A DNA stretch of 64,000 bases, taken from assembly GCA_001603805.1 (NCBI GenBank), contig LUZY01000013.1:348723-412722 (forward strand), given 5' to 3'. The DNA is from Deferribacterales bacterium Deferri_01. Lineage in GTDB: Bacteria > Chrysiogenota > Deferribacteres > Deferribacterales > Geovibrionaceae. The position numbers and the translations under genes were made by a program. Shown here one piece after another: positions 38,726-52,239 of the stretch; within the stretch, counting starts at the first letter, position 1; every line of letters starts with the position of its first letter. The notes under the pieces were generated by a model, which was not told where the DNA came from, did not search any database, and saw only the letters and a program-made list of their open reading frames with translations.

Positions 38726-39796
38726 TCAGCCGCAGGGCTTATAGTTTGTGGGAATATAATCACAGAAAGGCTCTTCTTCCATATAAGAGCCGCTTACGGC
38801 GTATGATCTCGCACGGCATCCGCCGCATACACCGAGATACTTACAGACTCCGCATTTGCCCTCATAGTCTTTAAAGCTTCTCATATCTTTAAATAACTGC
38901 GAGTTGTTCCATATTTCCCAGAAGCCCTGTTTAAAAACATTACCGGCAGCCATGGGAAAATATGAGCAGGGATAAACATCGCCTTCATGGTTGAGCAGAC
39001 ATATTGACTGACCGGCTATGCACCCTTTTCCGCCGCCTGTGCCGAAAGAAAGGCTTCTGCGTTCGGGGTCAAGCCCATCCGCCTTACTGCGTTCGTGCCA
39101 TATGCGGTAATATTGCGGCGCACAGGTGGGACGGACAAGAATATCCTCTTCCTCACGCTCCATATCATAGTGCCAGTTAAGAAGGTCTTCGTAATCCTCT
39201 TTAGAGACAAGCTCCTTCATAACCTCTTCCCCTCTTCCGGTGGGGACGATGAGGAACATATACCATGCAGTAGCGCCGATCTTTTTGGCAAGCTTGTATG
39301 TGCCTTCTATCTGGTTCTGGTTTCTTTTGGTGAAAGATGAGTTCACGATAAACTTGATATCATGCTTCCTGAAATGCTCTGCCGCGTTCATGACGGATTC
39401 ATAAGCACCTTCCTGACCACGGAAGTTGTCATGCACCTCTTTGGTAGCTCCGTCAAGACTAAGGGAGACTATGCGGATGCCTGACTGTTTCATGTTTTTA
39501 CAGACTTCATCATCCACAAGCATTCCGTTGGTAGCCATAGCCATGCGGAAACCTTTCTCTGTTCCGTATGCTGCTATGTCGAAAACATCTTTTCTTAAAA
39601 GCGGTTCACCGCCTGAAATAACTATAACAGGCTTGGCTTGTTCGCCTATCTCATCCATAAGAGATTGGCATTTGTCAAACGTAAGGTTTCCCTCCGCAGA
39701 TTCTATTGTTGAATTAGAACGGCAGTGAACGCAATTCATGTTGCATTTTCTGGTTACTTCCCATGCCATCCATTTCAGATCCCACTGTTTGTTCAT
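38726..39796 (-). CDS. Radical SAM / SPASM-domain enzyme, AhbD/NirJ-like (anaerobic haem or haem-d1-type maturase family)
   Basis: CxxxCxxC ([14 protein letters not shown]), SGGEPLL, LSLDGA and a C-terminal SPASM Cys cluster ([13 protein letters not shown]). The N-terminal block closely resembles AhbD/NirJ. Confidence 0.75.
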
Positions 39797-39856: not shown

Positions 39857-40039
39857 TTACATTGCCGTCTGAATAATTTTTACAGACCGCAGTTGTCTGA
39901 TCTCCCGCACGGCGGCTTCCGTCTGTGGAAGCTTAATATACGTCTGTCTGCCGCAGAAAACTGAACGTCCTGCCCAGCCACCGCTGTTCAAAAAACCTGC
40001 GTCCATGCAGTTTTTTTCACTCGCATCTTCACGGCACAT
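39857..40039 (-). CDS. Questionable 60-aa Cys-containing small ORF directly upstream of the radical SAM/SPASM gene
   Basis: MCREDASEKNCMDAGF... has a GGAGGAAG sequence about 14 nt upstream. The region is unusually GC-rich for an intergenic stretch and contains direct repeats. It could equally be a structured RNA or regulatory region. Confidence 0.2.
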   Translation of the reverse strand: MCREDASEKNCMDAGFLNSGGWAGRSVFCGRQTYIKLPQTEAAVREIRQLRSVKIIQTAM

Positions 40040-40073
40040 CCATGTGCCTTTAACTTCCTCCGTCCACGGAAGC

Positions 40074-40952
40074 TTAGTAAATATCTATAGCTCCGCTAAG
40101 ATAGTATATAAAATAACCGTCAACACGGAGAACATTCAGTTCATAGGAATCGGGCAGAGGGACACCCCCCATGTTGCGGAGCGCACGCACTGCCTCATTA
40201 TCAAGATCAGGGTAGCCGCTGCTTTTTACCACCTGAACATCAGTTATTCTTCCGTCCTTATGTATGGCAAACTTGATGCGCACCGTACCCTGCTCTCCAC
40301 GCATAGCGGCTGAATAAGGGTAAGCCCATGTCTGATAAAGCTGACGGCGGAATTTATAAAAATACGAAGTATAGCGTGTTTTGACCTCCTGCATAGACAC
40401 CGTATCTTCACCGGTTTTATCACCTCCGCCTTCCGCAGCTCTGTTTATAACATCAGTGGGATTAAGAATCCGGTCTATAACTTCCCTGTCAAGCCCCTGT
40501 ATCGAATCTCTCTGGGGAAAATCCATCTTAGGAAGCTCAGGTTTTTCCAGTTTGTCCGGCTCTGCTCTTCGGGTCTGCTGATCTTTCGGAGCTGGAACAG
40601 GACGCTCCCTGCCTGGCTTTTCACTCTGCTTTTGCTGCTGGTCTTTTACACCTGTCTGCTGCTTTTCGGCAGATTTTGCAGAAGCTTGCTGATCATCCGG
40701 AGTAACTTTTATCACTTCTTTCTCAGGTTTTGATTCAGGAACAGGTTGAGGTCTGGGTACAGGCTCAGGCGGCGTCTGCCTTACAGGAGGCGGCGGAGTT
40801 TCTTTTTCTTTCTCTATTATTTCCACACTGATCGGTTTCTCTTTCTTCTCCGGTTCATCAATTTTAATGAACATAAAAAGAAGAAGATGAAGCATAGCCG
40901 AAATCAGCAAAAACCATGCGAGTCTTGAGTTCATTTTTATAATTATAGTCAA
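40074..40952 (-). CDS. tonB: TonB-family energy transducer
   Basis: N-terminal TM anchor, a Pro-rich spacer (PPPPVRQTPPEPVPRPQPVPE) and a C-terminal TonB domain (GTVRIKFAIHKDGRITDVQVVKSSGYPDLD). TTG start. Confidence 0.8.
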   Translation of the reverse strand: MTIIIKMNSRLAWFLLISAMLHLLLFMFIKIDEPEKKEKPISVEIIEKEKETPPPPVRQTPPEPVPRPQPVPESKPEKEVIKVTPDDQQASAKSAEKQQTGVKDQQQKQSEKPGRERPVPAPKDQQTRRAEPDKLEKPELPKMDFPQRDSIQGLDREVIDRILNPTDVINRAAEGGGDKTGEDTVSMQEVKTRYTSYFYKFRRQLYQTWAYPYSAAMRGEQGTVRIKFAIHKDGRITDVQVVKSSGYPDLDNEAVRALRNMGGVPLPDSYELNVLRVDGYFIYYLSGAIDIY

Positions 40953-43129: not shown

Positions 43130-45736
43130 ATGATTAACTTCAACAAAATGACTATAAAAGCGCAGGAGGCAGCAGAGCAGGCTCTTGCCCTCGCCTCTGA
43201 AAAAAATCAGCAGCAGATAGAGCCCGAACACTTTCTTATTGCCCTTTTAAAACAGGAGGACGGGCTTGTGAAGCCTCTTCTTCAGAAGGCAGGCGTCAAT
43301 GTGAATGCTCTGGAAGCAGGCACAGATGATATCATAAACTCCCTTCCCACTGTCAGCGGTTCGGGTCAGCAGTATTTCTCTCCTGACTGCAACAAGGCAC
43401 TGGAAAAGGCATTTAAAATAATAAAAGACTTCGGGGACGAGTATGTCTCTACTGAACATATTCTCCTCGGTATAATTGATAACGCAGGCTACAGACTGCG
43501 CACCCTGCTTTCTCAGACAGGAGCGGATAAGAAAGCCGTGGAAAAGGCGATAAAGGAAGTCAGAGGTTCAGCCAAGGTTACAGACCAGAACCCTGAAGGC
43601 AAAATGAACGCCATAGAGAAATACACAATCAACCTTACAAACCTTGCCAGAGAAGGCAAACTTGATCCCGTTATAGGACGTGATGAGGAAATAAGGCGTG
43701 TTGTGCATGTTCTCTCCCGCAGGACAAAAAACAACCCCGTTCTGATAGGCGAACCGGGTGTCGGCAAAACTGCCATTGTTGAAGGACTGGCGCACAGAAT
43801 AGTAAACGGCGATGTGCCGGACTCCCTGAAAGATAAAACAGTAGCATCCCTTGACATGGGTGCGCTTATCGCAGGAACAAAATTCAGGGGCGAATTTGAA
43901 GAGAGACTTAAAGCCATCCTCACCCAGATAAGAGAAAAGGAAGGCGAAATAATACTCTTTATAGACGAAATGCACACTCTTGTGGGTGCTGGTGCGGCAG
44001 AAGGAGCGATGGACGCTGCTAATCTTCTCAAACCCGCTCTGGCGAGGGGCGATCTGCACTGTATAGGCGCAACAACCCTTGATGAATACAAAAAACATAT
44101 TGAAAAAGATGCCGCCCTTGAAAGACGTTTTCAGCCTGTAATGGTTAAGGAGCCCAGCGTTGAGGATACCGTTTCAATACTGAGAGGACTCAAGGAAAAA
44201 TATGAGGTTCACCACGGGGTGCGTATAAAAGACTCTGCACTTGTGGCGGCTGCTCATTTGGCAAAGAAATACATAAGCGACCGCTTTATGCCCGATAAAG
44301 CCATAGACCTTATTGATGAAGCCACAGCAAAACTGAGGATGGAGATAGACAGCCTCCCCACAGAGCTTGATGAAACAGAACGTAAGATCACACAGCTTGA
44401 AATAGAAAAACAGGCACTTAAACGTGAGTCTGACAATGTGAGTAAAAACCGCTTGGTCAAACTTGAGGAAGAGCTTGCAAATATCAAGTCTGAGGCTGAC
44501 AGACTCAGAGCCCACTGGAGCAACGAAAAAGGACTTATCAAAAAGTCCAGAGAGATAAAAGAGCATATAGAAGAGGAAAAGCATCAAATGCAGAAGGCCG
44601 AGCGTGAAGGAAACTTCGCCCTCGCCTCAGAAATAAAATACAGCAGGCTTGTCCAGCTTGATAAAGAACTTGAAGAGGCTAACGCAAAACTCGCCGAAAT
44701 TCAGAGCGGTAAAAAAATGCTCAAAGAGGAAGTGGACGAGGAAGACATAGCCGCTATAGTTTCCAAATGGACAGGAATACCTGTGACCAAACTCATGCAG
44801 GAAGAAGCCGACAAGCTCATCAACATGGAAGACTACCTCCACAAAAGGGTCATAGGACAGGACAGAGCAATAAAAGCAGTGAGTGAAGCAGTCCGCAGAA
44901 ACAGAGCCGGTCTGGGCGACCCGAACAGACCCATTGGTTCATTCATATTCCTTGGACCCACTGGCGTCGGTAAAACGGAGCTGGCAAAGGCACTTGCGGA
45001 GTTTATGTTTGACTCGGAAGATGCGATGATCCGCATAGATATGAGTGAGTACATGGAGAAACACGCAGTAGCAAAGCTTATCGGAGCGCCTCCCGGATAT
45101 GTGGGGTATGATGAAGGCGGACAGCTTACTGAAAGAGTACGCCGCAAACCATACGCTGTCATACTCATGGACGAGATAGAAAAAGCGCATCCGGATGTTT
45201 TTAACATACTGCTCCAGATGCTTGATGACGGCAGGCTCACAGATTCCAAAGGCAGAACTGTAAGCTTTAAAAACTGTGTAGTAATAATGACATCAAACAT
45301 CGCATCGCAGGAGATACAGGAAGAATTCGCCAAGGAAAGCTCTATGGAACAGAAATATATGTTCATAGATAACGTGGTGATGAACAGGCTTTCATCATTC
45401 TTTAAACCGGAGTTTCTTAACAGGCTGGATGATATTATTGTATTCCACCCTCTTAATAAGGAACATCTTTATAATATTGCAGAAATGCTTATGAGAGATT
45501 TTGCTGCAAGAATGCGTGAAAATTCTGTTGAACTTGTCTGGGATGATTCTGTCATTATAGAAATAGTAAAAGCAGGTTTTGATCCTGCTTTCGGCGCCAG
45601 ACCCATGAAAAGAGCCATAAGGAAACTTGTGGAAAACAAACTGGCGGAAGCACTTATAAAAGGTGACATAAAAGCAGAACAGAAAATAAAACTGACCTAT
45701 GGTCAAACCGGCATGAACTTCAGTACAACCTCCTGA
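43130..45736 (+). CDS. clpB: Chaperone ClpB (Hsp100 disaggregase)
   Basis: Two AAA+ modules (GEPGVGKT and GPTGVGKTE), a long coiled-coil middle domain and the Clp N-domain. 868 aa. Confidence 0.95.
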
Positions 45737-45741
45737 AAAGA

Positions 45742-45768
45742 GGCGGGGGCAGCACCCCGCCTTTTTTA
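45742..45768 (+). terminator. Rho-independent terminator after clpB
   Basis: GGCGGGGGCAGCACCCCGCC followed by TTTTTT. Confidence 0.6.
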
Positions 45769-45878
45769 TATTCATGAAAAAAGCTTTTATAAATAAACCA
45801 TATACAGAAATGTTTTTTGTTTCAAAATATGGTATATTTGATATACTTCTTAAGTTATATAAGGGTTGAGAGTTGAAA

Positions 45879-46817
45879 ATGGATCATGAACTTGACGACC
45901 TTCAGGAAGAGCAGGAAGAAACCGAAGAAACGGAAAGCACTGCTGAATCTGCAGAGGTTGAAGAAGTAATTCACAATGACGCCCCGCCTCCTGTGAGTGA
46001 AAACACGCTGAAGCATTATCTTAACAGCATCAGCAAATACAAACCGATGACAAAAGAGCAGGAGTTTGTGATAGGGGAAAGAATACAAAAGGGCGATAAA
46101 GATGCTCTTAATACTCTTATACTCTCAAATCTCAAATTTGTTGTTTCAATCGCAAACCGCTACAGGAACACTGGTTTACCTATTTCTGATCTGATAAATC
46201 AAGGCAATTTAGGACTTGTGGAGGCGGCAAAACGCTTCGACCATACCAAAGGAGTAAAATTCATCTCCTATGCAGTATGGTGGATACGCCAGGCTATCAT
46301 TCAGGCTCTGGCGGAACAGTCGGGAACAGTGAAGCTGCCTATTAAACAGGCAGGGATATTATACAAAATAAACGGTGCCATAGAAAAACTCAGCAAACAG
46401 CTCGGGCGTGAGGCTACAAACAGCGAGCTTGCCGAATATCTCGGCATGGAAGAACCGGACATTGAAAATGTTCTGCGTGTTTCAAGAAACTATCTGTCAC
46501 TTGAAGCACCAATAAAAGACGGAGAAGACCGTTCTTTTATAGATCTCCTTGAATCAGGTTCTAAAAGTATAGAAGAAGATATAATCTCCAAAACCCTTAA
46601 ACAGGCTCTTGGTGACATTATTGATGAGCTTACCGAGCGTGAGGCAAAGATTATAGAGCTTCGTTTCGGCATAGAAGGTGATGCGCCGAAAACTCTGGAA
46701 GAAATAGGCGATATGCTTAAAATAAGCCGTGAGCGAGTGCGCCAGCTTGAGGCTAGAGCATTATCAAAACTCCGCAAGAAAGCCATGCGGAAAAAACTCC
46801 ACGACTTTTTAAACTAA
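45879..46817 (+). CDS. Sigma-70 family RNA polymerase sigma factor (group 2/3, RpoS/RpoH-like size) with an acidic N-terminus
   Basis: Region 2 (FISYAVWWIRQAI), region 3 and region 4.2 HTH (TLEEIGDMLKISRERVRQLEARALSKLR). ATG start chosen (MDHELDD). The track ORF begins at a TTG two codons upstream. Confidence 0.8.
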   Translation: MDHELDDLQEEQEETEETESTAESAEVEEVIHNDAPPPVSENTLKHYLNSISKYKPMTKEQEFVIGERIQKGDKDALNTLILSNLKFVVSIANRYRNTGLPISDLINQGNLGLVEAAKRFDHTKGVKFISYAVWWIRQAIIQALAEQSGTVKLPIKQAGILYKINGAIEKLSKQLGREATNSELAEYLGMEEPDIENVLRVSRNYLSLEAPIKDGEDRSFIDLLESGSKSIEEDIISKTLKQALGDIIDELTEREAKIIELRFGIEGDAPKTLEEIGDMLKISRERVRQLEARALSKLRKKAMRKKLHDFLN

Positions 46818-46853
46818 AAAAAGCGGAAGGCAGAACCTTCCGCTTTATTTTTT
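46815..46853. terminator. Bidirectional rho-independent terminator between the sigma factor gene and lipoprotein paralogue A
   Basis: AAAAAAA-GCGGAAGGCAGAACCTTCCGC-TTTATTTTTT. Confidence 0.6.
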
Positions 46854-46865
46854 AATTACAAACAA

Positions 46866-48134
46866 TTAATTGAATACGTTACCAATACGCACTTCCTCAG
46901 CTTCCCATTCGGCAGGTTCGCTTGAGCCTAAGTTTCTCTCTATACCGATTACAGAACCGTAAAATGAAAGAGTCTGGTCCTCGAACTCGTAATTAAGAGC
47001 AATCATCTCTATATTCTCTTCATTATCATCAATATATTTTCCAAAAAACAGAATACTGTCTTCTCTTGTATCTATAAAACCTTTGAAAGTATCATCCCCT
47101 TCGGTGAGTGTAACGTTGCAGCCATCCTGCACAATAGTCACTGTGCCGTTGTCTTCCTCTATTTCAGTAGGGTCATTGCTGCTTATAATGCGAGAAATGA
47201 AAGGCATATCTGTAACAGAGAGGTCAACACTTGAGCATGAGGGATCTTCGGGGTTAGCCCCTACAGCACGTTTCATGGTTGCTGTTGCAGTGCATGAGCC
47301 GTCCTTGGGTGAAAAAGTCATAAGAAACTCACTGGAATCCGTGTATTCCATAGACATATTATATTCAGGCATACCCGTCTCAGTATATTGACGAAGAACA
47401 GCGGAATTAGGATCAGTCAGGTTTCCTGAAAAGAAGTCAATGTTCTCAATCACCTGTTTCACTGAGGCTGAAGACAAGCCGGAAGGAAGAGTGGATGGTT
47501 GCTTTGAATAGTTTGCAGAAATGGTGTAAAGGTTAACTGAGCCTCCGGTTAAATAAGCTATGAATCTTTCAGTTGTGTTATCCTCACCATCGCACACAAT
47601 ATTAACTTCGGCAGCATATACACCGTAAAGTGCATCGGAGTTCATATTGCCTATTGCCACATCCTCGTCTATGAGGTTGAGAGTGTCAAAGCTGCCAGCA
47701 AAATCGTCAAGCTCTGTTTCCTCAGTCACAAGACCGTTAATGTCATCCACAGCCGTTTCATTCATTATAAGAGTACCGTTATCCACCGAGCTGAGAGTCT
47801 GGATAAGTCTGGCAATAAGAACAGCATTGTTATGATCTGTTATATCAAAGGGGGTGATATAAGTAGCAGCGGGCGCACTTCCCAGAACAAGATTGCCTAT
47901 TCTGAAAGTTACAGTATCGCCTTCATTGAACAGGAATTTGCCTTCCGCATCGGTAAAGCCTGAATACCCGCTGGGTGAAGTGGAATAAGCTATGCCCGCC
48001 ACAGGTGCATCAACAAAAATACCTGTTGATGAAGGGGCGGATGGTTCACTGCTGCTACTGCTGCTTCCGCCGCAGCCGTAAATAAAGAGTGATAAAAGCA
48101 TAGCACTGAGTGCCGTTAAGATTATTTTGTGCAT
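46866..48134 (-). CDS. Lipoprotein, paralogue A of the tandem pair (CarboxypepD_reg-like N-terminal beta-sandwich motif)
   Basis: Signal peptide and lipobox (LLSLFIYGCGGSSSSSSEPS). TDAEGKFLFNEGDTVTFRIGNLVLG motif. ATG start 6 nt after GGAGGT. The track ORF begins at an upstream GTG. Confidence 0.7.
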   Translation of the reverse strand: MHKIILTALSAMLLSLFIYGCGGSSSSSSEPSAPSSTGIFVDAPVAGIAYSTSPSGYSGFTDAEGKFLFNEGDTVTFRIGNLVLGSAPAATYITPFDITDHNNAVLIARLIQTLSSVDNGTLIMNETAVDDINGLVTEETELDDFAGSFDTLNLIDEDVAIGNMNSDALYGVYAAEVNIVCDGEDNTTERFIAYLTGGSVNLYTISANYSKQPSTLPSGLSSASVKQVIENIDFFSGNLTDPNSAVLRQYTETGMPEYNMSMEYTDSSEFLMTFSPKDGSCTATATMKRAVGANPEDPSCSSVDLSVTDMPFISRIISSNDPTEIEEDNGTVTIVQDGCNVTLTEGDDTFKGFIDTREDSILFFGKYIDDNEENIEMIALNYEFEDQTLSFYGSVIGIERNLGSSEPAEWEAEEVRIGNVFN

Positions 48135-48175
48135 AAGCACACCTCCGCAGAAATTATAATCATTTCCAATATTTA

Positions 48176-48204
48176 ATTTTTATACGGGTGAACAAAGGTG
48201 TCAA
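48176..48204 (-). promoter_or_regulatory. Predicted sigma-70 promoter of lipoprotein paralogue A
   Basis: The minus strand reads TTGACA-N16/17-TAAAAAT about 40 nt upstream of the RBS. A copy lies upstream of paralogue B. Confidence 0.4.
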
Positions 48205-48240
48205 GCCGAAATGAACATTATTGCTGGAATTTTAGCTATT

Positions 48241-48277
48241 AAAAAAGCGGAAGATTTTACCTTCCGCTTTATTTTTT
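48241..48277. terminator. Rho-independent terminator after lipoprotein paralogue B (a duplicated copy of the 46815-46853 element)
   Basis: AAAAAA-GCGGAAGATTTTACCTTCCGC-TTTATTTTTT. Confidence 0.55.
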
Positions 48278-48284
48278 GTACAAA

Positions 48285-49541
48285 CTAATCTACAGGAAAG
48301 TAAATATCGACTTCCTCTATTGACCATTCAGCAGGTTCATTTGAGTTTAAGTTTTTTACTACTCCCATCACTTCTCCTTCAAACTCAGGATACAAATGTG
48401 TTACATTGTAGTCCATAGTAATCGTTTCAATATTCTCTTCATTATCTTCAGTATAGGTTCCGATTAATAAAATCCTTTCAGCTTGAGTATCTACAAAACC
48501 GGTAAAAGTGTCGTTCCCTTCTGTAAGAGTTACATTGCAGCCATCCTGCACAATTGAGACTGTTCCGTTATCCTTATTAAGCAGATTCTCTGAATTACTG
48601 CTGCCAATTATAATGGACCTGAAAGGAATGTTTGCTACAGATACATCAACGCTTGAGCATGTGGGATCATCAGAATTGGCACCTAAGACACGTACCATGT
48701 CCGCAGTTGCAGTGCAGGAACCGTCGCTGGATGAAAGAGTCATTTGAAACTCGCTGGAATCGGTATACTCCATAGACATATTGTATTCAGGCATATCCGC
48801 TTCTGTATATTGATGAAGCACTGCAGAATTAGAATCTGTTAACTCTCCTGAGAAGAAATCAAAACTATCTATAGTTCTTATGCCAGAAGGAGATGATAAG
48901 CTGTTGAAACCATTCAACCTATGTTCTATTGCATAAATTTTTACCTTTCCAGCACTGATAACAACACCGAACTCTCCTGTTACATTGTCTTCACCTTCAC
49001 AAACAACAGTAGCAAGACCGGAATAAGCTCCGTAAAGAGCATCTCCATTCATATTTCCTATTGCCACATCCTCGTTTATAAGATTGAGGGTATCAAAACT
49101 CCCTGCAAAATCGTCAAGCTCTGTTTCCTCTGTCACAAGACCGTTAATGTCATCCACGGCTGTTTCATTCATTACAAGAGTGCCGTTATCCTCCGAGCTG
49201 AGGGTCTGGATAAGTCTGGCAACAAGAACAGCGTTTGTTCGGTCTGTTATGTCAAAGGGTGTGATATAACTAGCCGCAGGCGCACTTCCCAGAACAAGAT
49301 TACCTATCTTGAAAGTTACCGTATCGCCTTCATTGAACAGGAATTTACCTTCCGCATCGGTAAAGCCTGAATACCCGCTGGGTGAAGTGGAATAAGCTAT
49401 GCCCGCCACAGGTGCATCAACAAAAACACCTGTTGATGAGGGGGCGGATGGTTCACTGCTGCTACTGCTGCTTCCGCCGCAGCCGTAAATAAAGAGTGAT
49501 AAAAGCATAGCACTGAGTGCCGTTAAGATTATTTTGTGCAT
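48285..49541 (-). CDS. Lipoprotein, paralogue B of the tandem pair
   Basis: The N-terminal 160 aa or so are near-identical to paralogue A (same lipobox and leader, nucleotide-level identity). The central region is divergent and the C-terminal motifs are shared (NGTV.IVQDGCNVTLTEG.DTF). Confidence 0.7.
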   Translation of the reverse strand: MHKIILTALSAMLLSLFIYGCGGSSSSSSEPSAPSSTGVFVDAPVAGIAYSTSPSGYSGFTDAEGKFLFNEGDTVTFKIGNLVLGSAPAASYITPFDITDRTNAVLVARLIQTLSSEDNGTLVMNETAVDDINGLVTEETELDDFAGSFDTLNLINEDVAIGNMNGDALYGAYSGLATVVCEGEDNVTGEFGVVISAGKVKIYAIEHRLNGFNSLSSPSGIRTIDSFDFFSGELTDSNSAVLHQYTEADMPEYNMSMEYTDSSEFQMTLSSSDGSCTATADMVRVLGANSDDPTCSSVDVSVANIPFRSIIIGSSNSENLLNKDNGTVSIVQDGCNVTLTEGNDTFTGFVDTQAERILLIGTYTEDNEENIETITMDYNVTHLYPEFEGEVMGVVKNLNSNEPAEWSIEEVDIYFPVD

Positions 49542-49582
49542 AAGCACACCTCCGCAGAAATTATAATTATTTCCAATATTTA

Positions 49583-49611
49583 ATCTTTATACGTGTGAAC
49601 AAAGGTGTCAA
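49583..49611 (-). promoter_or_regulatory. Predicted sigma-70 promoter of lipoprotein paralogue B (duplicate of 48176-48204)
   Basis: TTGACA-N16/17-TATAAAGAT on the minus strand. Flanking sequence is near-identical to the paralogue-A upstream region. Confidence 0.4.
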
Positions 49612-49730
49612 GTTAAAATGAACATAAGTAATGTTTGAGGTATACTCGTTAATTTGATAAATGGATCTGCGAAAAAAATTCAAGGAATAATAGAGAGATA
49701 TGAAGGCAGCGGATTAGGCTGCCGATATAA

Positions 49731-50264
49731 TTAACAGTTGTTTTTTATTTCTTCCAGAGTGAGGATCGAATACACACCCTCTTCCCCTTTTTTATCTATG
49801 ATAACCGCACAGCCGGCAAGTTCTGCACCTGATTGCGCTACAATCTCTTTCACAGCTTTCAGGGTGTTTCCTCTGGCGAAAAAATCATCCACATATATAA
49901 CCCTGTCATCACTGCTGAGAACCTCTTTTGAGACGTAAAGAGTAGTGTTCTCCTGCTTGGTAAAGGAATAACTTTCAGCACTGTAAAAATCTGCCATTGT
50001 AATGGGTTTCTTTTTCTTGGCAAAAATGTAGGGAATCCCCAGCGCCTCCGCCAAAGGATGAGCTATGGTTATTCCGCTGGTTTCCGCAGTAACTATTTTG
50101 GTAAGTCCGGCATTTTTAAAATGCTGCGCCATATCATCCGCCATGATGCGGAAAAGCTCTATATCAACCTGATGGTTGATAAATTTATCAACCTTGACGA
50201 CCTCGCCGTTTACACTGCCGTATTTTTTTATTCTCTCAAGCAGAGCTTCGCTTGCTTTTCTCAT
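49731..50264 (-). CDS. xpt: Xanthine phosphoribosyltransferase
   Basis: PRTase motif VIYVDDFFARGNT and the Xpt-specific N-terminus (LERIKKYGSVNGEVVKVDKFINHQVD). Confidence 0.9.
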   Translation of the reverse strand: MRKASEALLERIKKYGSVNGEVVKVDKFINHQVDIELFRIMADDMAQHFKNAGLTKIVTAETSGITIAHPLAEALGIPYIFAKKKKPITMADFYSAESYSFTKQENTTLYVSKEVLSSDDRVIYVDDFFARGNTLKAVKEIVAQSGAELAGCAVIIDKKGEEGVYSILTLEEIKNNC

Positions 50265-51190
50265 TTTCTGTCCTCTCTGTCATATGGAATACCAAGGCTT
50301 TCCGGTTCAGGTGTAGTACCCTTGCCGAGCCTGATTGTGGATATTACAAGAACTATAATAGTAAAAAGGTATGGAAGCATCTGCAGCACATGGGAGGAAA
50401 TATCTGTTCCCATAGCCTGCATCCTCAGTTGGAGCGCATCTATACCGCCGAAAAGGTAAGCCCCGAAAACAGCTCTGGTGCTGTTCCATTGGGAGAAGAT
50501 AACAAGGGCAACAGCAATCCATCCCCTGCCCGCCGTCATGTTTTCCACCCAGAAAGGTGTATAGGCAAGAGAAAGGTAAGCACCGCCTATTCCGGCAAAA
50601 CCGGAACCCACAAGAACAGCCATCATGCGGTATTTGGTAACACTTATACCAGATGTATCCGCCGCTGCGGGGTTTTCGCCCACAGACCGAAGATAAAGCC
50701 CCCATTTTGTCCGGCGGAAAAAAAGGTGAACGCCTATGACAAGAACTATGGAGAAGTAAACAAGCATATCCTGCCTGAAGAGAGGATTTATAACAGGTAT
50801 AGACGATAGAAAAGGGATCTCAACTCTGGAGAACTCTGTGATCGTTTTCCCCACCATCTTCTGACCGAAAAGAGCCGTAAAGCCTATACCGAACATTGTG
50901 AGCGACAGACCGCTGACGATCTGGTTTCCTCTGAGATAAACAGTAATAAGCCCGTGAATCGCACCTGCGGCAAGGGCAGCAAGGAAAGAAGCACAGACTC
51001 CCAGAAACAGGCTCCCTGTGATATTAGCAGTGGCAAAGCCCGCTAGAGCGCCTATTAGCATAAGCCCTTCTATACCAAGATTTATAACACCGGAGCGTTC
51101 CATAATTATTGCGCCTGTTGTGGCGAAAAGAATTGACGTGCCTGCTCTTATGGTTGCATCAAGCAAAACTTCTATCATGATTTGCCCCAA
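50261..51190 (-). CDS. Nucleoside (BMP-family) ABC transporter permease
   Basis: 309 aa polytopic permease with a 4-nt overlap with xpt. Position and type correspond to YufQ/NupC-like. Confidence 0.8.
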   Translation of the reverse strand: MGQIMIEVLLDATIRAGTSILFATTGAIIMERSGVINLGIEGLMLIGALAGFATANITGSLFLGVCASFLAALAAGAIHGLITVYLRGNQIVSGLSLTMFGIGFTALFGQKMVGKTITEFSRVEIPFLSSIPVINPLFRQDMLVYFSIVLVIGVHLFFRRTKWGLYLRSVGENPAAADTSGISVTKYRMMAVLVGSGFAGIGGAYLSLAYTPFWVENMTAGRGWIAVALVIFSQWNSTRAVFGAYLFGGIDALQLRMQAMGTDISSHVLQMLPYLFTIIVLVISTIRLGKGTTPEPESLGIPYDREDRK

Positions 51191-52239
51191 ATAATCCGCA
51201 TTTTATTGGCTATAAAAAAATCTGACGACAGAACAAAAAAGAGAATCAACCCCTGAAACAGGTTTACAAACGCCACAGGAAGCTGCCACATGATCTGGAG
51301 GCTGTCACCACCCACAAGCAGAACACCCATTATAAGAGAAACGATAAGCACGCCCAAAGCAGAGCGCCTCGCCAGCCACGCAACAATTATAGCTGTATAT
51401 CCGTAGCCGATAGATACCCCTTCCTGCAAACGGTACTGAACTCCGGAAACTTCGCTGAATCCTGCTATACCTGCTATGGCGCCGCTCAGAAACATTGTAC
51501 CTATAATAGCGGTTGTTATATTCATCCCGGCATACTTAGCGGCGTTGGGGTTGTCACCTATTACCCTGATCTCATAACCGTACACAGTTTTTTCCATAAA
51601 TATATAAACAAGAAAAACCAGAACCAAAGCTATGAAAAAACCTGTATGCAGCCTTGAATCGAAGTAATATGACATCCTTGCTGCTTCAGCAAACTGAGCT
51701 GAGTGAGGAAAATTGAACCCTGACGGGTCCTTCCACCTGCCGTAAATGAGCAGTGAAAGTATTGATATAGCAATATAGTTCATTAAAAGAGTGACTATAA
51801 TCTCGTTAACTCTGTATTTTGCTTTTAAAAAACCCGAAACAACAGCCCATAGACCGCCGCAAATCATTGAACCCGCTATCATTGCTGTTATCAGCAGAAA
51901 GTGGTTTTCAATCCCTGAAAATAAAGCAATGCCGGATGCGCCTATGGCGCCCATAACGAGCTGTCCTTCCGCTCCGATGTTCCAGAGCTGCATACGGAAA
52001 GCCACTGATATGCCAAGCCCGCATATTATAAGCGGTGTTGCCTTAACAAGTGTTTCGCTTATGCCGTATGATGTTCCGAGGGCTTCCATGATCATATCTC
52101 TGTATGCCTCAAGCGGGTTTATGTCCGCAAAAAGCATAATTATTCCCGCAGTCAATAGAGAAAAAGCCACAGCAACAAAAGGTGCGGTTATGCGGAAAGT
52201 TTTTGAGGCTTCCAGTCTTTTTTCAAATCTTATCCGCAT
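51175..52239 (-). CDS. Nucleoside (BMP-family) ABC transporter permease
   Basis: 354 aa polytopic permease, overlapping both neighbouring genes. Position and type correspond to YufP/NupB-like. Confidence 0.8.
   Translation of the reverse strand: MRIRFEKRLEASKTFRITAPFVAVAFSLLTAGIIMLFADINPLEAYRDMIMEALGTSYGISETLVKATPLIICGLGISVAFRMQLWNIGAEGQLVMGAIGASGIALFSGIENHFLLITAMIAGSMICGGLWAVVSGFLKAKYRVNEIIVTLLMNYIAISILSLLIYGRWKDPSGFNFPHSAQFAEAARMSYYFDSRLHTGFFIALVLVFLVYIFMEKTVYGYEIRVIGDNPNAAKYAGMNITTAIIGTMFLSGAIAGIAGFSEVSGVQYRLQEGVSIGYGYTAIIVAWLARRSALGVLIVSLIMGVLLVGGDSLQIMWQLPVAFVNLFQGLILFFVLSSDFFIANKMRIIWGKS

What the first reader, a model, noticed from the sequence alone, without database searches (positions are those of the whole stretch)
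46815..49632. Recent tandem duplication producing two mosaic lipoprotein paralogues (identical 5' ends, divergent centres)
Two units of about 1.42 kb repeat promoter, RBS, gene and terminator. The first 480 nt or so of the two genes are almost base-for-base identical, covering signal peptide, lipobox and a CarboxypepD_reg-like motif. The central 150 aa or so are strongly diverged, and the C-terminal motifs are again shared. Identical ends with variable middles is a signature of gene conversion or concerted evolution, or of diversifying selection on a surface-exposed segment. Both are surface-lipoprotein candidates of unknown function.
Basis: seen in the sequence. Interest (0 to 1): 0.6.

Follow-up and report, generated by a model that had tools for sequence, protein, structure and literature searches.

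The report
Old lipoprotein gene pair, homogenised starts
Two neighbouring genes for membrane-anchored lipoproteins in a Geovibrio bacterium are old copies of each other whose first third, promoter included, is kept nearly identical by DNA copying between them, which is a familiar evolutionary pattern in an otherwise unstudied protein family.

Summary
Two head-to-tail units (period 1407-1424 nt, minus strand) each carry a promoter-like region, an RBS, a lipoprotein gene (B 49541-48285, A 48134-46866) and a terminator.

Identity is mosaic. It is 93% over the 84 nt upstream, 98.6% for coding nt 1-210, 88% for nt 211-495, 54% for nt 496-720 and 69% after that.

"Recent duplication" is not supported. 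Synonymous divergence is 0.04 in codons 1-70, 0.5 in codons 71-165 and above 1.3 or saturated in the rest. The paralogues are therefore old, and only the 5' third was homogenised recently by gene conversion.

Independent assemblies confirm the tandem pair. Conspecific strains, including the isolate Geovibrio sp. ADMFC3, carry only one A-type gene in the same slot. A sister MAG has a toxin-antitoxin pair there, and Limisalsivibrio has nothing. The locus is thus a copy-number-polymorphic accessory cassette.

The proteins comprise a lipobox signal peptide, a Ser-rich tether and a small N-terminal module shared with many lipoproteins (weakly like SslE/AcfD). These are followed by two eight-stranded beta-barrels (AF2 pLDDT 78) found only in Geovibrio relatives. 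A disordered loop in barrel 1 is hypervariable among strains.

The function is unknown, and a ligand-binding outer-membrane lipoprotein is inferred. The mechanism is ordinary and the interest is modest.

The parts
48232..49625 (-). Repeat unit B: promoter-like region, RBS, gene B and terminator
   Evidence: Unit-against-unit blastn and repeat families with 1407-1424 nt spacing.
46808..48218 (-). Repeat unit A: promoter-like region, RBS, gene A and terminator
   Evidence: Homology with unit B starts 84 nt upstream of the ATG.
48285..49541 (-). Gene B, a 418-aa lipoprotein (ATG 49541, stop 48285-48287). The ORF listing extends the ORF to a GTG at 49547.
   Evidence: The exact protein is in public collections as 'hypothetical protein' (P0143).
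46866..48134 (-). Gene A, a 422-aa lipoprotein (ATG 48134, stop 46866-46868)
   Evidence: The exact protein is P0138. Single-copy orthologues occur in Geovibrio sp. ADMFC3 and other contigs.
49583..49611 (-). Promoter-like site of B: TTGACA, 17 nt, AAAGAT
   Evidence: Read from the sequence as the equivalent of the A site. This is a consensus match only, and the number of sites in the region does not exceed the shuffled controls.
48176..48204 (-). Promoter-like site of A: TTGACA, 17 nt, AAAAAT
   Evidence: 10 of 12 matches. It lies inside the 84-nt upstream stretch, which is 93% identical between the units and 93-96% identical to the upstream region of the single-copy strains.
48244..48270 (-). 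Terminator hairpin after B (AAAGCGGAAGG..CCTTCCGCTTT followed by a T run)
   Evidence: (family D4).
46820..46846 (.). Bidirectional terminator hairpin shared by gene A (-) and the convergent sigma-factor gene (+)
   Evidence: One search reports it on both strands. The sigma-factor stop codon is at 46815-46817.
47925..48218 (-). Most recent conversion tract in A (-84 to +210). Its partner in B is 49332-49625.
   Evidence: There are 9 differences in 294 nt, and dS is 0.04 for codons 1-70. A and B of the two-copy strains cluster together for nt 1-210. B in the window carries A-type bases at +24, +33 and +54.
47640..47924 (-). Older shared tract in A (+211 to +495). Its partner in B is 49047-49331.
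   Evidence: 88.4% identity and dS 0.5. Here A is 98.6% identical to the ADMFC3 orthologue and 88% identical to B.
47415..47639 (-). Most divergent core between A and B (+496 to +720): the first strands of barrel 1 plus the loop. B lacks 15 nt here.
   Evidence: 54% nucleotide identity, pS 0.84 and dN 0.55.
47295..47549 (-). Strain-variable patch of gene A (codons 196-280). Codons 208-227 form a predicted disordered loop in barrel 1.
   Evidence: Window against L001 is about 85% identical here and 98-100% elsewhere. dS is 0.3-0.39, and dN/dS is 0.81 in codons 196-240. pLDDT is below 50 for model residues 44-63.
48072..48134 (-). Lipoprotein signal peptide and lipobox of A (residues 1-21, FIYG|C). 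The equivalent in B is 49479-49541.
   Evidence: Read from the translations. The homologues have LVMGC and FIAGC at the same place.
47628..48029 (-). N-terminal module of A: a small beta-sandwich (residues 36-88) and a helical region (residues 101-169)
   Evidence: AF2 model 1. There is a weak NCBIfam SslE/AcfD local match at residues 42-114. The module is shared with unrelated lipoproteins P0005-P0016.
46872..47624 (-). Two consecutive eight-stranded up-and-down beta-barrels of A (residues 171-292 and 305-421)

Best explanation
**What is there.** Genes B and A are old paralogues of one lipoprotein gene, arranged head to tail. They sit in a strain-variable slot between the convergent xpt and sigma-factor genes of a Geovibrio genome (Deferribacterota), conspecific or nearly so with isolate ADMFC3. 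Each gene keeps its own promoter-like region, identical RBS and terminator.

**How the pattern arose.** The 3' two-thirds diverged long ago. The promoter and the first 165 codons or so are repeatedly overwritten by gene conversion between the copies. The newest tract runs from -84 to +210, and an older one reaches +495. The same 5' homology allows unequal crossing-over, so the species is polymorphic for one copy (A-type only) or two copies.

**What the proteins look like.** They are modular: a lipid anchor and Ser-rich tether, then a conserved N-terminal beta-sandwich/helical module, then two eight-stranded beta-barrels.

**What is shown.** The anatomy, the age difference between the 5' and 3' parts, the concerted evolution of the 5' end, the copy-number polymorphism and the fold class of the C-terminal region.

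**What is inferred.**
- The conserved N-terminal module serves a common task such as anchoring, sorting or a shared partner.
- The diverged barrels bind different ligands or present different surfaces.
- The floppy loop of barrel 1 evolves under relaxed or diversifying pressure.
- Both genes are co-regulated through their identical 5' regions.
For: **Age gradient.** Nei-Gojobori dS is 0.04 (codons 1-70), 0.50 (71-165), saturated (166-240) and 1.33 (241 to the end). Fisher's test on synonymous differences gives p = 3e-14, and the maximal chi-square breakpoint falls at nt 495 with 0 of 1000 permutations reaching it.

**Segment trees.**
- For nt 1-210, A and B of the two-copy strains are 98.6-99% identical to each other, but A is only 95-97% identical to the ADMFC3-group orthologues.
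- For nt 211-495, A is 98.6% identical to ADMFC3 and 88% identical to B.
- For nt 496-1266, B is a deep outgroup to every A allele (52-76%).

**Site table.** B in the window has A-type bases at +24, +33 and +54, where B in L001 and L016 has the single-copy type. Position +102 is swapped between the strains.

**Shared third allele.** One divergent patch is 48/48 identical between a B copy (L004) and an A copy (L007).

**Copy number.**
- Tandem pairs occur in L001, L003, L016 and L017.
- Single copies occur in ADMFC3/L012, L013, L014, L015 and L002.
- The flanking genes are 95-99% identical among all of them.

**Variable slot.** Homology with the sister MAG stops at 46817 and resumes at 49741. 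That MAG holds a HepT/MNT pair there, and Limisalsivibrio holds nothing.

**Structure.**

**Orphan status of the barrels.**
Against: - SNP phasing between two near-identical 300-nt repeats in metagenome assemblies is unreliable. The strain-specific conversion events could therefore be assembly chimeras, and L004 carries an odd internal deletion.
- The origin of B is unresolved. An ancient in-situ duplication requires two or more losses or a long-lived presence/absence polymorphism. No B-type gene was found as a single copy anywhere.
- Nothing is known experimentally about function, localisation or regulation.
- Promoter-like hexamers are no more frequent here than in shuffled sequence.
- dN/dS in the variable loop is 0.81, so positive selection is not demonstrated.
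Confidence: 0.8

Rival explanations
1. One reading: a recent tandem duplication, after which the centre and the 3' part diverged fast under diversifying selection while the ends stayed identical.
For: The promoter and the first 210 coding nt are near-identical. A loop in the divergent core is hypervariable among strains.
Against: - Synonymous sites in the 3' two-thirds are saturated or at dS 1.3, and selection on the protein cannot produce that.
- dN/dS there is 0.1-0.45, which indicates purifying selection.
- Conspecific strains differ by only 2-5% in the flanks, yet B differs from every A allele by 24-48%.
- The 3' end is not identical (66-72%).
Confidence: 0.04
2. B is not an in-situ duplicate. 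It is instead a very divergent allele or xenologue of the same gene, imported from another Geovibrio lineage and captured in tandem upstream of the resident A gene. The 5' third was later homogenised, or itself served as the crossover site.
For: - Two-copy strains form one tight group, whereas single-copy strains are more diverse and include the most basal one, L002. One gain is therefore more parsimonious than two or more losses.
- The slot holds different accessory genes in related genomes.
- Recombination imports divergent patches into gene A.
Against: - No B-type gene was found alone or in any other lineage.
- The whole unit is repeated in the same order, including the promoter region and a similar terminator hairpin. 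That is what a tandem duplication leaves.
- A single-copy locus has exactly the structure that unequal crossing-over between the 5' repeats would produce: B-type upstream plus an A-type body.
Confidence: 0.3
3. The 5' identity reflects strong purifying selection on the signal peptide and N-terminal module, or on the mRNA 5' end, rather than gene conversion.
For: The N-terminal module is the only part conserved outside the family. dN is low there (0.006-0.04).
Against: - Selection on the protein does not hold synonymous sites at dS 0.04 when the rest of the gene is at 1.3.
- The non-coding 84 nt upstream are homogenised as well.
- The paralogues are closer to each other than A is to its orthologues for nt 1-210.
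Confidence: 0.03
4. Assembly artefact: one gene with strain variants was wrongly laid out as two tandem copies.
For: The source appears to be a metagenome-derived contig. One Logan contig (L002) shows a single, frameshifted copy.
Against: - Four other assemblies from different samples contain B and A together or span the B-terminator to A-promoter junction, at 98-100% identity.
- The two bodies are too different (54-72%) to be strain variants of a population whose flanks are 95-99% identical.
- Single-copy loci are real in an isolate genome.
Confidence: 0.02

Closest known systems
Paralogous lipoprotein or surface-protein gene families with conserved 5' ends and divergent bodies kept alike by gene conversion. 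Examples recalled from my own knowledge and not tested here: Mycoplasma vlp/vsp lipoprotein genes, Campylobacter fetus sap homologues, Borrelia lipoprotein paralogues.
   Same: The promoter, signal peptide and N-terminal region are near-identical between neighbouring paralogues, while the exposed remainder is divergent. Copy number varies among strains, and recombination occurs at the conserved 5' block.
   Different: - There are only two copies, and each has a full promoter and terminator.
- There is no silent cassette.
- No invertase or recombinase gene lies among the neighbours listed. The only inverted repeats of 20 nt or more in 45000-51500 are the palindromic terminators and two weak pairs.
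- No slippage-prone homopolymer or dinucleotide tract was noticed on reading the sequence.
- The host is free-living and environmental.
- Nothing indicates switching of expression.
Slam/T11SS-dependent surface lipoproteins of Proteobacteria (TbpB, LbpB, HpuA, fHbp, NHBA, PmSLP)
   Different: - There is no sequence match to their Pfam families.
- No handle domains are present.
- No DUF560/Slam gene lies in the neighbourhood.
- The phylum is different.
SslE/AcfD family lipoprotein metalloproteases (NCBIfam NF037974, NF037973)
   Same: Residues 42-114 give a local match to the N-terminal non-catalytic region (E 6e-5 to 2e-4). Assuming NF037973 model positions track SslE residue numbers, the match (positions 286-363) would fall within the flexible NT2 domain (residues 230-425) of SslE, whose function is unknown (PMC8881592). 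Both are lipoproteins.
   Different: The score is 19-21 bits against a cut-off of 800. There is no M60 protease domain, and the proteins are 420 aa against about 1500 aa.
Hypothetical lipoproteins of Geovibrio thiophilus (EP073_01155, P0004) and a related Geovibrio contig (P0017)
   Same: These are the only full-length homologues. They have the same four-module architecture and four invariant cysteines, with 31-35% identity.
   Different: They are single-copy and sit at another locus, followed by a DtxR-family regulator gene. They carry insertions in barrel 2.

Membership tests
Bacterial lipoprotein (signal peptidase II substrate) | An N-terminal positively charged n-region, a hydrophobic h-region, and a lipobox [LVI..][ASTVI..][GAS]C with the Cys within the first 35 residues or so | tested here: met
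   The sequence is MHK-IILTALSAMLLSLF-IYG-C21 in both proteins. Tyr at position -2 is unusual. The homologues have VMGC and IAGC. The test is by inspection only, and no predictor was run.
Gene conversion / concerted evolution between paralogues | Synonymous divergence is sharply heterogeneous along the paralogue alignment | tested here: met
   dS is 0.04, then 0.50, then above 1.3. Maximal chi-square is 131, reached by 0 of 1000 permutations.
Gene conversion / concerted evolution between paralogues | In the converted tract the paralogues of one genome are closer to each other than to their orthologues, while the opposite holds outside the tract | tested here: met
   For nt 1-210, A against B is 98.6% and A against ADMFC3 is 95.2%. 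For nt 211-1266, A against ADMFC3 is 84-99% and A against B is 54-88%.
Gene conversion / concerted evolution between paralogues | Independent, strain-specific conversion events (polymorphisms shared between the paralogues) | tested here: inconclusive
   Such patterns are seen at +24, +33, +54 and +102, and in a patch shared by L004 and L007. SNP phasing inside a repeat in metagenome assemblies cannot be trusted without reads.
SslE/AcfD lipoprotein zinc metalloprotease (NF037974) | A full-length match above the curated cut-off, including the M60-like peptidase domain | tested here: not met
   The score is 19-21 bits against a cut-off of 800, and only model positions 176-251 are matched. There is no M60 or other Pfam hit.
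CarboxypepD_reg-like domain (Pfam PF13620 and relatives) | A sequence match to the Pfam model | tested here: not met
   hmmscan against Pfam-A returned no such hit at E<=1. A small beta-sandwich is predicted for residues 36-88, and one distant homologue is named this way by UniRef (P0016). A fold-level resemblance therefore remains possible but was not tested.
Slam/T11SS-dependent surface lipoproteins (TbpB-like) | A C-terminal eight-stranded beta-barrel | tested here: met
Slam/T11SS-dependent surface lipoproteins (TbpB-like) | A neighbouring Slam (DUF560) outer-membrane protein gene, and sequence membership in the TbpB barrel families | tested here: not met
   The neighbours are an ABC transporter, xpt, a sigma factor, ClpB, MerR, DnaJ, HSP20 and TonB. 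There is no Pfam hit. Only about 6-10 kb on each side was inspected.
Phase- or antigenic-variation locus | A switching device: an invertible promoter with a recombinase, slippage-prone repeats in the promoter or 5' coding sequence, or silent cassettes | tested here: not met
   The inverted repeats are the palindromic terminators plus two weak pairs. The Ser tract is an AGC/AGT mix of 18 nt, which stays in frame. No recombinase gene is nearby. No tandem-repeat finder was run, and the absence of slippage-prone tracts rests on reading the sequence.
Anti-phage defence protein (PADLOC) or phage protein (PHROGs) | A match to a defence or phage family model | tested here: not met
   PADLOC gave no hit at E<=1. 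PHROGs gave only one weak hit of unknown function (E 0.0036).

The most novel reading that the evidence does not exclude
A and B define a Deferribacterota-specific class of outer-surface lipoproteins with twin calycin-like barrels. They would act as exchangeable binding modules, for example for a metal, haem or redox-active ligand or another cell-surface partner in an electroactive bacterium. The homogenised promoter and N-terminal block would serve as a recombination handle, letting strains gain, lose and swap barrel cassettes under phage or predator pressure. This would be a TbpB-like receptor-diversification system outside Proteobacteria and without Slam.
Probability: 0.1. Interest if true: 0.6.

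Novelty: new member of a known kind. Interest (0 to 1): 0.3.

Why it matters
The finding gives a clean, well-bounded natural example of partial gene conversion. Three age strata sit in one 1.3-kb gene pair, together with copy-number polymorphism inside a single species, and the case could be used for teaching or for benchmarking conversion detectors.

It also flags an uncharacterised lipoprotein family restricted to Geovibrio relatives, which are electroactive, metal-reducing bacteria. The architecture consists of a widespread N-terminal module plus two orphan beta-barrels, and the strain-variable loop suggests an exposed interaction surface.

The finding does not reveal a new mechanism. The practical lesson for annotation is that 'identical 5' end' should not be read as 'recent duplication'.

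Tried and rejected
**Family and structure searches**
- Pfam gave nothing for A or B.
- A sequence search of the PDB gave nothing.
- PADLOC and PHROGs gave nothing useful.
- Rfam found no RNA family in the whole window, so no riboswitch sits near xpt or the ABC operon.
- The full-length AF2 model was poor (pLDDT 57.8). Its Foldseek hits to TbpB and LbpB have TM scores of only 0.1-0.2 and were not used as evidence for a TbpB-like overall architecture.
- The afdb50 fold library was unavailable.
- hhalign of barrel 1 against barrel 2 shows no detectable internal sequence repeat (probability 0.2%).

**Collection scans**
- The two GTDB genome scans found only an N-terminal-module match in a Planctomycetota MAG.
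- The metagenome scan added one locus, L007.

**Regulation**
- A Fur-box scan scores the shared 5'UTR palindrome GGAAAT(G/A)ATTATAATTTC at 13 of 19. That is like 33 other places in the window and is not significant.
- No promoter motif is shared with the Geovibrio thiophilus homologue.
- The DtxR-regulator neighbourhood of the G. thiophilus-type homologues is not conserved at this locus.

**Other**
- Base composition of the cassette does not differ from the flanks, so it offers no compositional sign of foreign origin.
- Sequence downstream of the two terminators is too diverged to define a duplication junction.

Full report
**1. What is at the coordinates**

Both genes lie on the minus strand. 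Gene B is 48285..49547 and gene A is 46866..48140. The likely starts are the ATG codons at 49541 and 48134, each 7 nt after a GGAGG.

- The repeat finder reports direct repeats spaced 1407-1424 nt apart, plus two similar terminator hairpins at 46817-46853 and 48241-48277.
- Unit-against-unit blastn gives 596 nt at 92%, starting 84 nt upstream of each ATG. About 180 nt with no nucleotide similarity follow, and then 636 nt at 71% through the terminators.
- No further copy exists in the 64-kb window (tblastn).
- The order on the minus strand is: Bmp-type ABC transporter genes, xpt (49731..50264), B, A. The convergent sigma-70-family gene (45873..46817) and clpB follow.

**2. The identity profile and whether it exceeds chance**

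| Region (relative to ATG) | Nucleotide identity |
|---|---|
| -84 to -1 | 92.9% |
| +1 to +210 | 98.6% (3 differences) |
| +211 to +495 | 88.4% |
| +496 to +720 | 54.3% |
| +721 to +1266 | 69.2% |

A maximal chi-square test places the main breakpoint at +495 (chi-square 131), and 0 of 1000 permutations reach that value.

Two points need correcting. '480 nt almost base-for-base identical' is too strong, and only the 5' end is homogenised.

**3. Age of the copies**

Nei-Gojobori estimates are as follows.

| Codons | dS | dN |
|---|---|---|
| 1-70 | 0.04 | 0.006 |
| 71-165 | 0.50 | 0.04 |
| 166-240 | saturated (pS 0.84) | 0.55 |
| 241 to end | 1.33 | 0.27 |

Synonymous differences number 2 of about 50 sites in codons 1-70, against 137 of about 230 sites in the rest (p = 3e-14).

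Selection on the protein cannot create a thirty-fold range in dS, and the non-coding 84 nt upstream are homogenised too. The duplication, or the split between the two gene bodies, is therefore old. The 5' third was overwritten later, in at least two layers.

**4. Evidence from other assemblies**

The organism belongs to Deferribacterota.
- Its ClpB is 81% identical to that of Limisalsivibrio acetivorans and 96% identical to that of a MAG.
- The exact A and B proteins are present in public collections as 'hypothetical protein'.
- A 423-aa A-type protein belongs to Geovibrio sp. ADMFC3, an electroactive isolate from an anaerobic digester (PMC11737074).

Copy number differs among assemblies.
- Tandem B+A occurs in L001 and L016. 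L003 and L017 hold the 3' part of B followed by gene A, so they span the B-A junction. All four are 98-100% identical to the window. This rules out a private assembly artefact.
- A single A-type gene in the same slot occurs in ADMFC3/L012, L013, L014, L015 and L002.
- The flanking permease, xpt and sigma genes are 95-99% identical among all these strains. This is therefore copy-number polymorphism within one species-level group.

In the next relative (MAG GCA_023395255.1, flanks about 84% identical), homology stops exactly at the sigma stop codon (46817) and resumes at 49741. The slot there holds a HepT/MNT toxin-antitoxin pair. Limisalsivibrio has only a 354-nt spacer. The 2.9-kb cassette is thus accessory DNA at a variable spot. 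Its base composition is unremarkable.

**5. Concerted evolution shown by segment trees**

- For nt 1-210, A and B of the two-copy strains cluster together at 98.6-99%, apart from the ADMFC3 group at 95-97%.
- For nt 211-495, A is 98.6% identical to ADMFC3 and B is 88% identical to everything.
- For nt 496-1266, B is a deep outgroup (52-76%) to all A alleles, including the single-copy genes.
- For the upstream 84 nt, the single-copy genes cluster with B. This is expected because both follow xpt.

A single-copy locus therefore looks like 'B upstream plus A body'. That is exactly what unequal crossing-over between the 5' repeats would leave. It is also what an ancestral single-copy state would look like.

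Finer patterns point to continuing exchange.
- B in the window carries A-type bases at +24, +33 and +54, where B in L001 and L016 does not.
- Position +102 is swapped between strains.
- A third allele patch is 48/48 identical between a B copy (L004) and an A copy (L007).

I treat these as suggestive only. Assemblers can mis-phase SNPs inside a near-identical 300-nt repeat, and L004 carries an unexplained internal deletion.

**6. Strain variation in gene A**

Window against L001 is 98-100% identical everywhere, and gene B is 100% identical over more than 1 kb. The exception is 47606-47306 in gene A, at about 85% with an indel.

This is an imported patch covering codons 196-280, with dS 0.3-0.39 against 0-0.06 in its flanks. 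dN/dS is 0.81 in codons 196-240 and 0.04 in codons 241-280.

Two loop allele classes exist. Window and L016 have one class, and L001, ADMFC3, L013, L015 and L002 have the other. The loop is relaxed or diversifying, but positive selection is not demonstrated.

**7. The proteins**

*Anchor and tether.* The signal peptide ends in the lipobox FIYG|C21 and is followed by GGSSSSSSEPSAPSS.

*N-terminal module.*
- Pfam gives no hit.
- NCBIfam gives only a weak local match of residues 42-114 to the N-terminal region of SslE/AcfD lipoproteins (19-21 bits against a cut-off of 800). If model positions 286-363 of NF037973 track SslE residue numbers, the match would fall in SslE's flexible NT2 domain (residues 230-425), whose function is unknown (PMC8881592).
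- The same 85-residue module or so heads otherwise unrelated lipoproteins that carry CAP, choice-of-anchor-I or unknown C-terminal parts.

*C-terminal region.*
- A profile of the C-terminal 300 residues finds only two 50%-identity clusters among 1.84 billion representatives. One is its own cluster and the other is the Geovibrio thiophilus type.
- The G. thiophilus-type homologues are single-copy, sit at another locus and lie next to a DtxR-family regulator.

*Predicted structure.*
- AF2 on the full protein was poor (pLDDT 57.8).
- AF2 on residues 165-422 alone gave pLDDT 78.3 and pTM 0.73. It shows two consecutive eight-stranded up-and-down barrels and a disordered loop at residues 208-227, which coincides with the hypervariable segment.
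- This fixes the fold class as a calycin-like ligand-binding barrel. That fold is common in lipoproteins, and it does not indicate a specific function.
- Four cysteines are invariant across the family (C181, C281, C300, C339), which is consistent with an extracytoplasmic location.

**8. Interpretation**

*Best supported (about 0.8).* These are old paralogues whose promoter, signal peptide and N-terminal module are homogenised by gene conversion. The 5' homology also mediates loss, or possibly gain, of a copy within the species.

*Open question.* How B arose remains undecided. One option is ancient in-situ duplication followed by losses. The other is capture of a divergent allele from another lineage, which I put at about 0.3. 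That figure is not exclusive of the main explanation, because it concerns only the origin of B.

*Function (inferred).* I infer two co-regulated outer-membrane lipoproteins that share an anchoring or partner-binding N-terminal module. Their barrels have diverged in what they bind or display.

*Rejected.*
- Recent duplication, by the dS profile.
- Purifying selection alone, by dS and by the non-coding identity.
- Assembly artefact, by the independent assemblies.
- A phase-variation device. Among the neighbours there is no recombinase gene, no silent cassette, and no inverted repeat other than the terminators and two weak pairs. No slippage-prone tract was noticed on reading the sequence.
- A defence or phage protein.

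**9. Novelty and score**

The evolutionary mechanism is textbook. The family is uncharacterised and narrow, with an interesting but generic fold. I rate it a new member of a known kind, with interest 0.3.

Noticed in passing
window 46818-49740; L008 13687-14410; L010 13700-14052: The gap between the convergent sigma-factor and xpt genes is a variable slot. It holds the two lipoprotein genes here, a HepT/MNT toxin-antitoxin pair in MAG GCA_023395255.1, and only a 354-nt spacer in Limisalsivibrio acetivorans.
   Followed up: yes
L002 about 2390-2445 (Logan SRR10520227): The single-copy A-type gene on this contig is split into 96-aa and 342-aa ORFs by one extra C in a C-run near codon 94. This is either a pseudogene or a sequencing or assembly error.
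   Followed up: partly
L004 319-321 (JGI 3300029202), equivalent to window 49480-49292: This contig lacks about 190 nt of the 5' coding region of gene B. Just after the gap it carries a divergent patch identical to the one in the A gene of L007. It is either a real deletion or recombinant, or a chimeric assembly.
   Followed up: partly
window 48149-48167 and 49556-49574 (minus strand 5'UTRs): A near-palindrome, GGAAAT(G/A)ATTATAATTTC, lies between the promoter-like site and the RBS of both genes. The A copy matches the E. coli Fur-box consensus at 13 of 19 positions, no better than about 33 other places in the window.
   Followed up: partly
L005 10001-11979; L011 239-2241: In Geovibrio thiophilus and a related contig, the single-copy homologue is followed on the same strand by a DtxR/Fe-dependent-repressor family gene. 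In G. thiophilus it is also preceded by a hybrid histidine kinase. This is a possible metal link and it is not conserved at the window locus.
   Followed up: partly
window 45736-45772, 46817-46853, 48241-48277: Three terminator hairpins of similar design (AAAAGxGG..CCxCTTTTTT) follow clpB, sigma/A and B. The A and B hairpins are 86% identical to each other. The clpB hairpin is 62% identical to the A hairpin, which is probably convergence.
   Followed up: no
window 39902-40101 against L007: Alignment with contig OBLN01000606.1 shows about 141 gapped positions in this interval, in an otherwise 96-100% identical 9-kb stretch. Several 200-nt bins are at 90-93% (43902-44101 in clpB, 40702-40901, 39302-39501), which hints at further recombination patches.
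   Followed up: no
window 48135-48140 and 49542-49547: The mechanical ORF calls begin at a GTG two codons upstream of the ATG. The ATG has the better spacing to the GGAGG (7 nt) and matches the public protein records (422 and 418 aa).
   Followed up: yes
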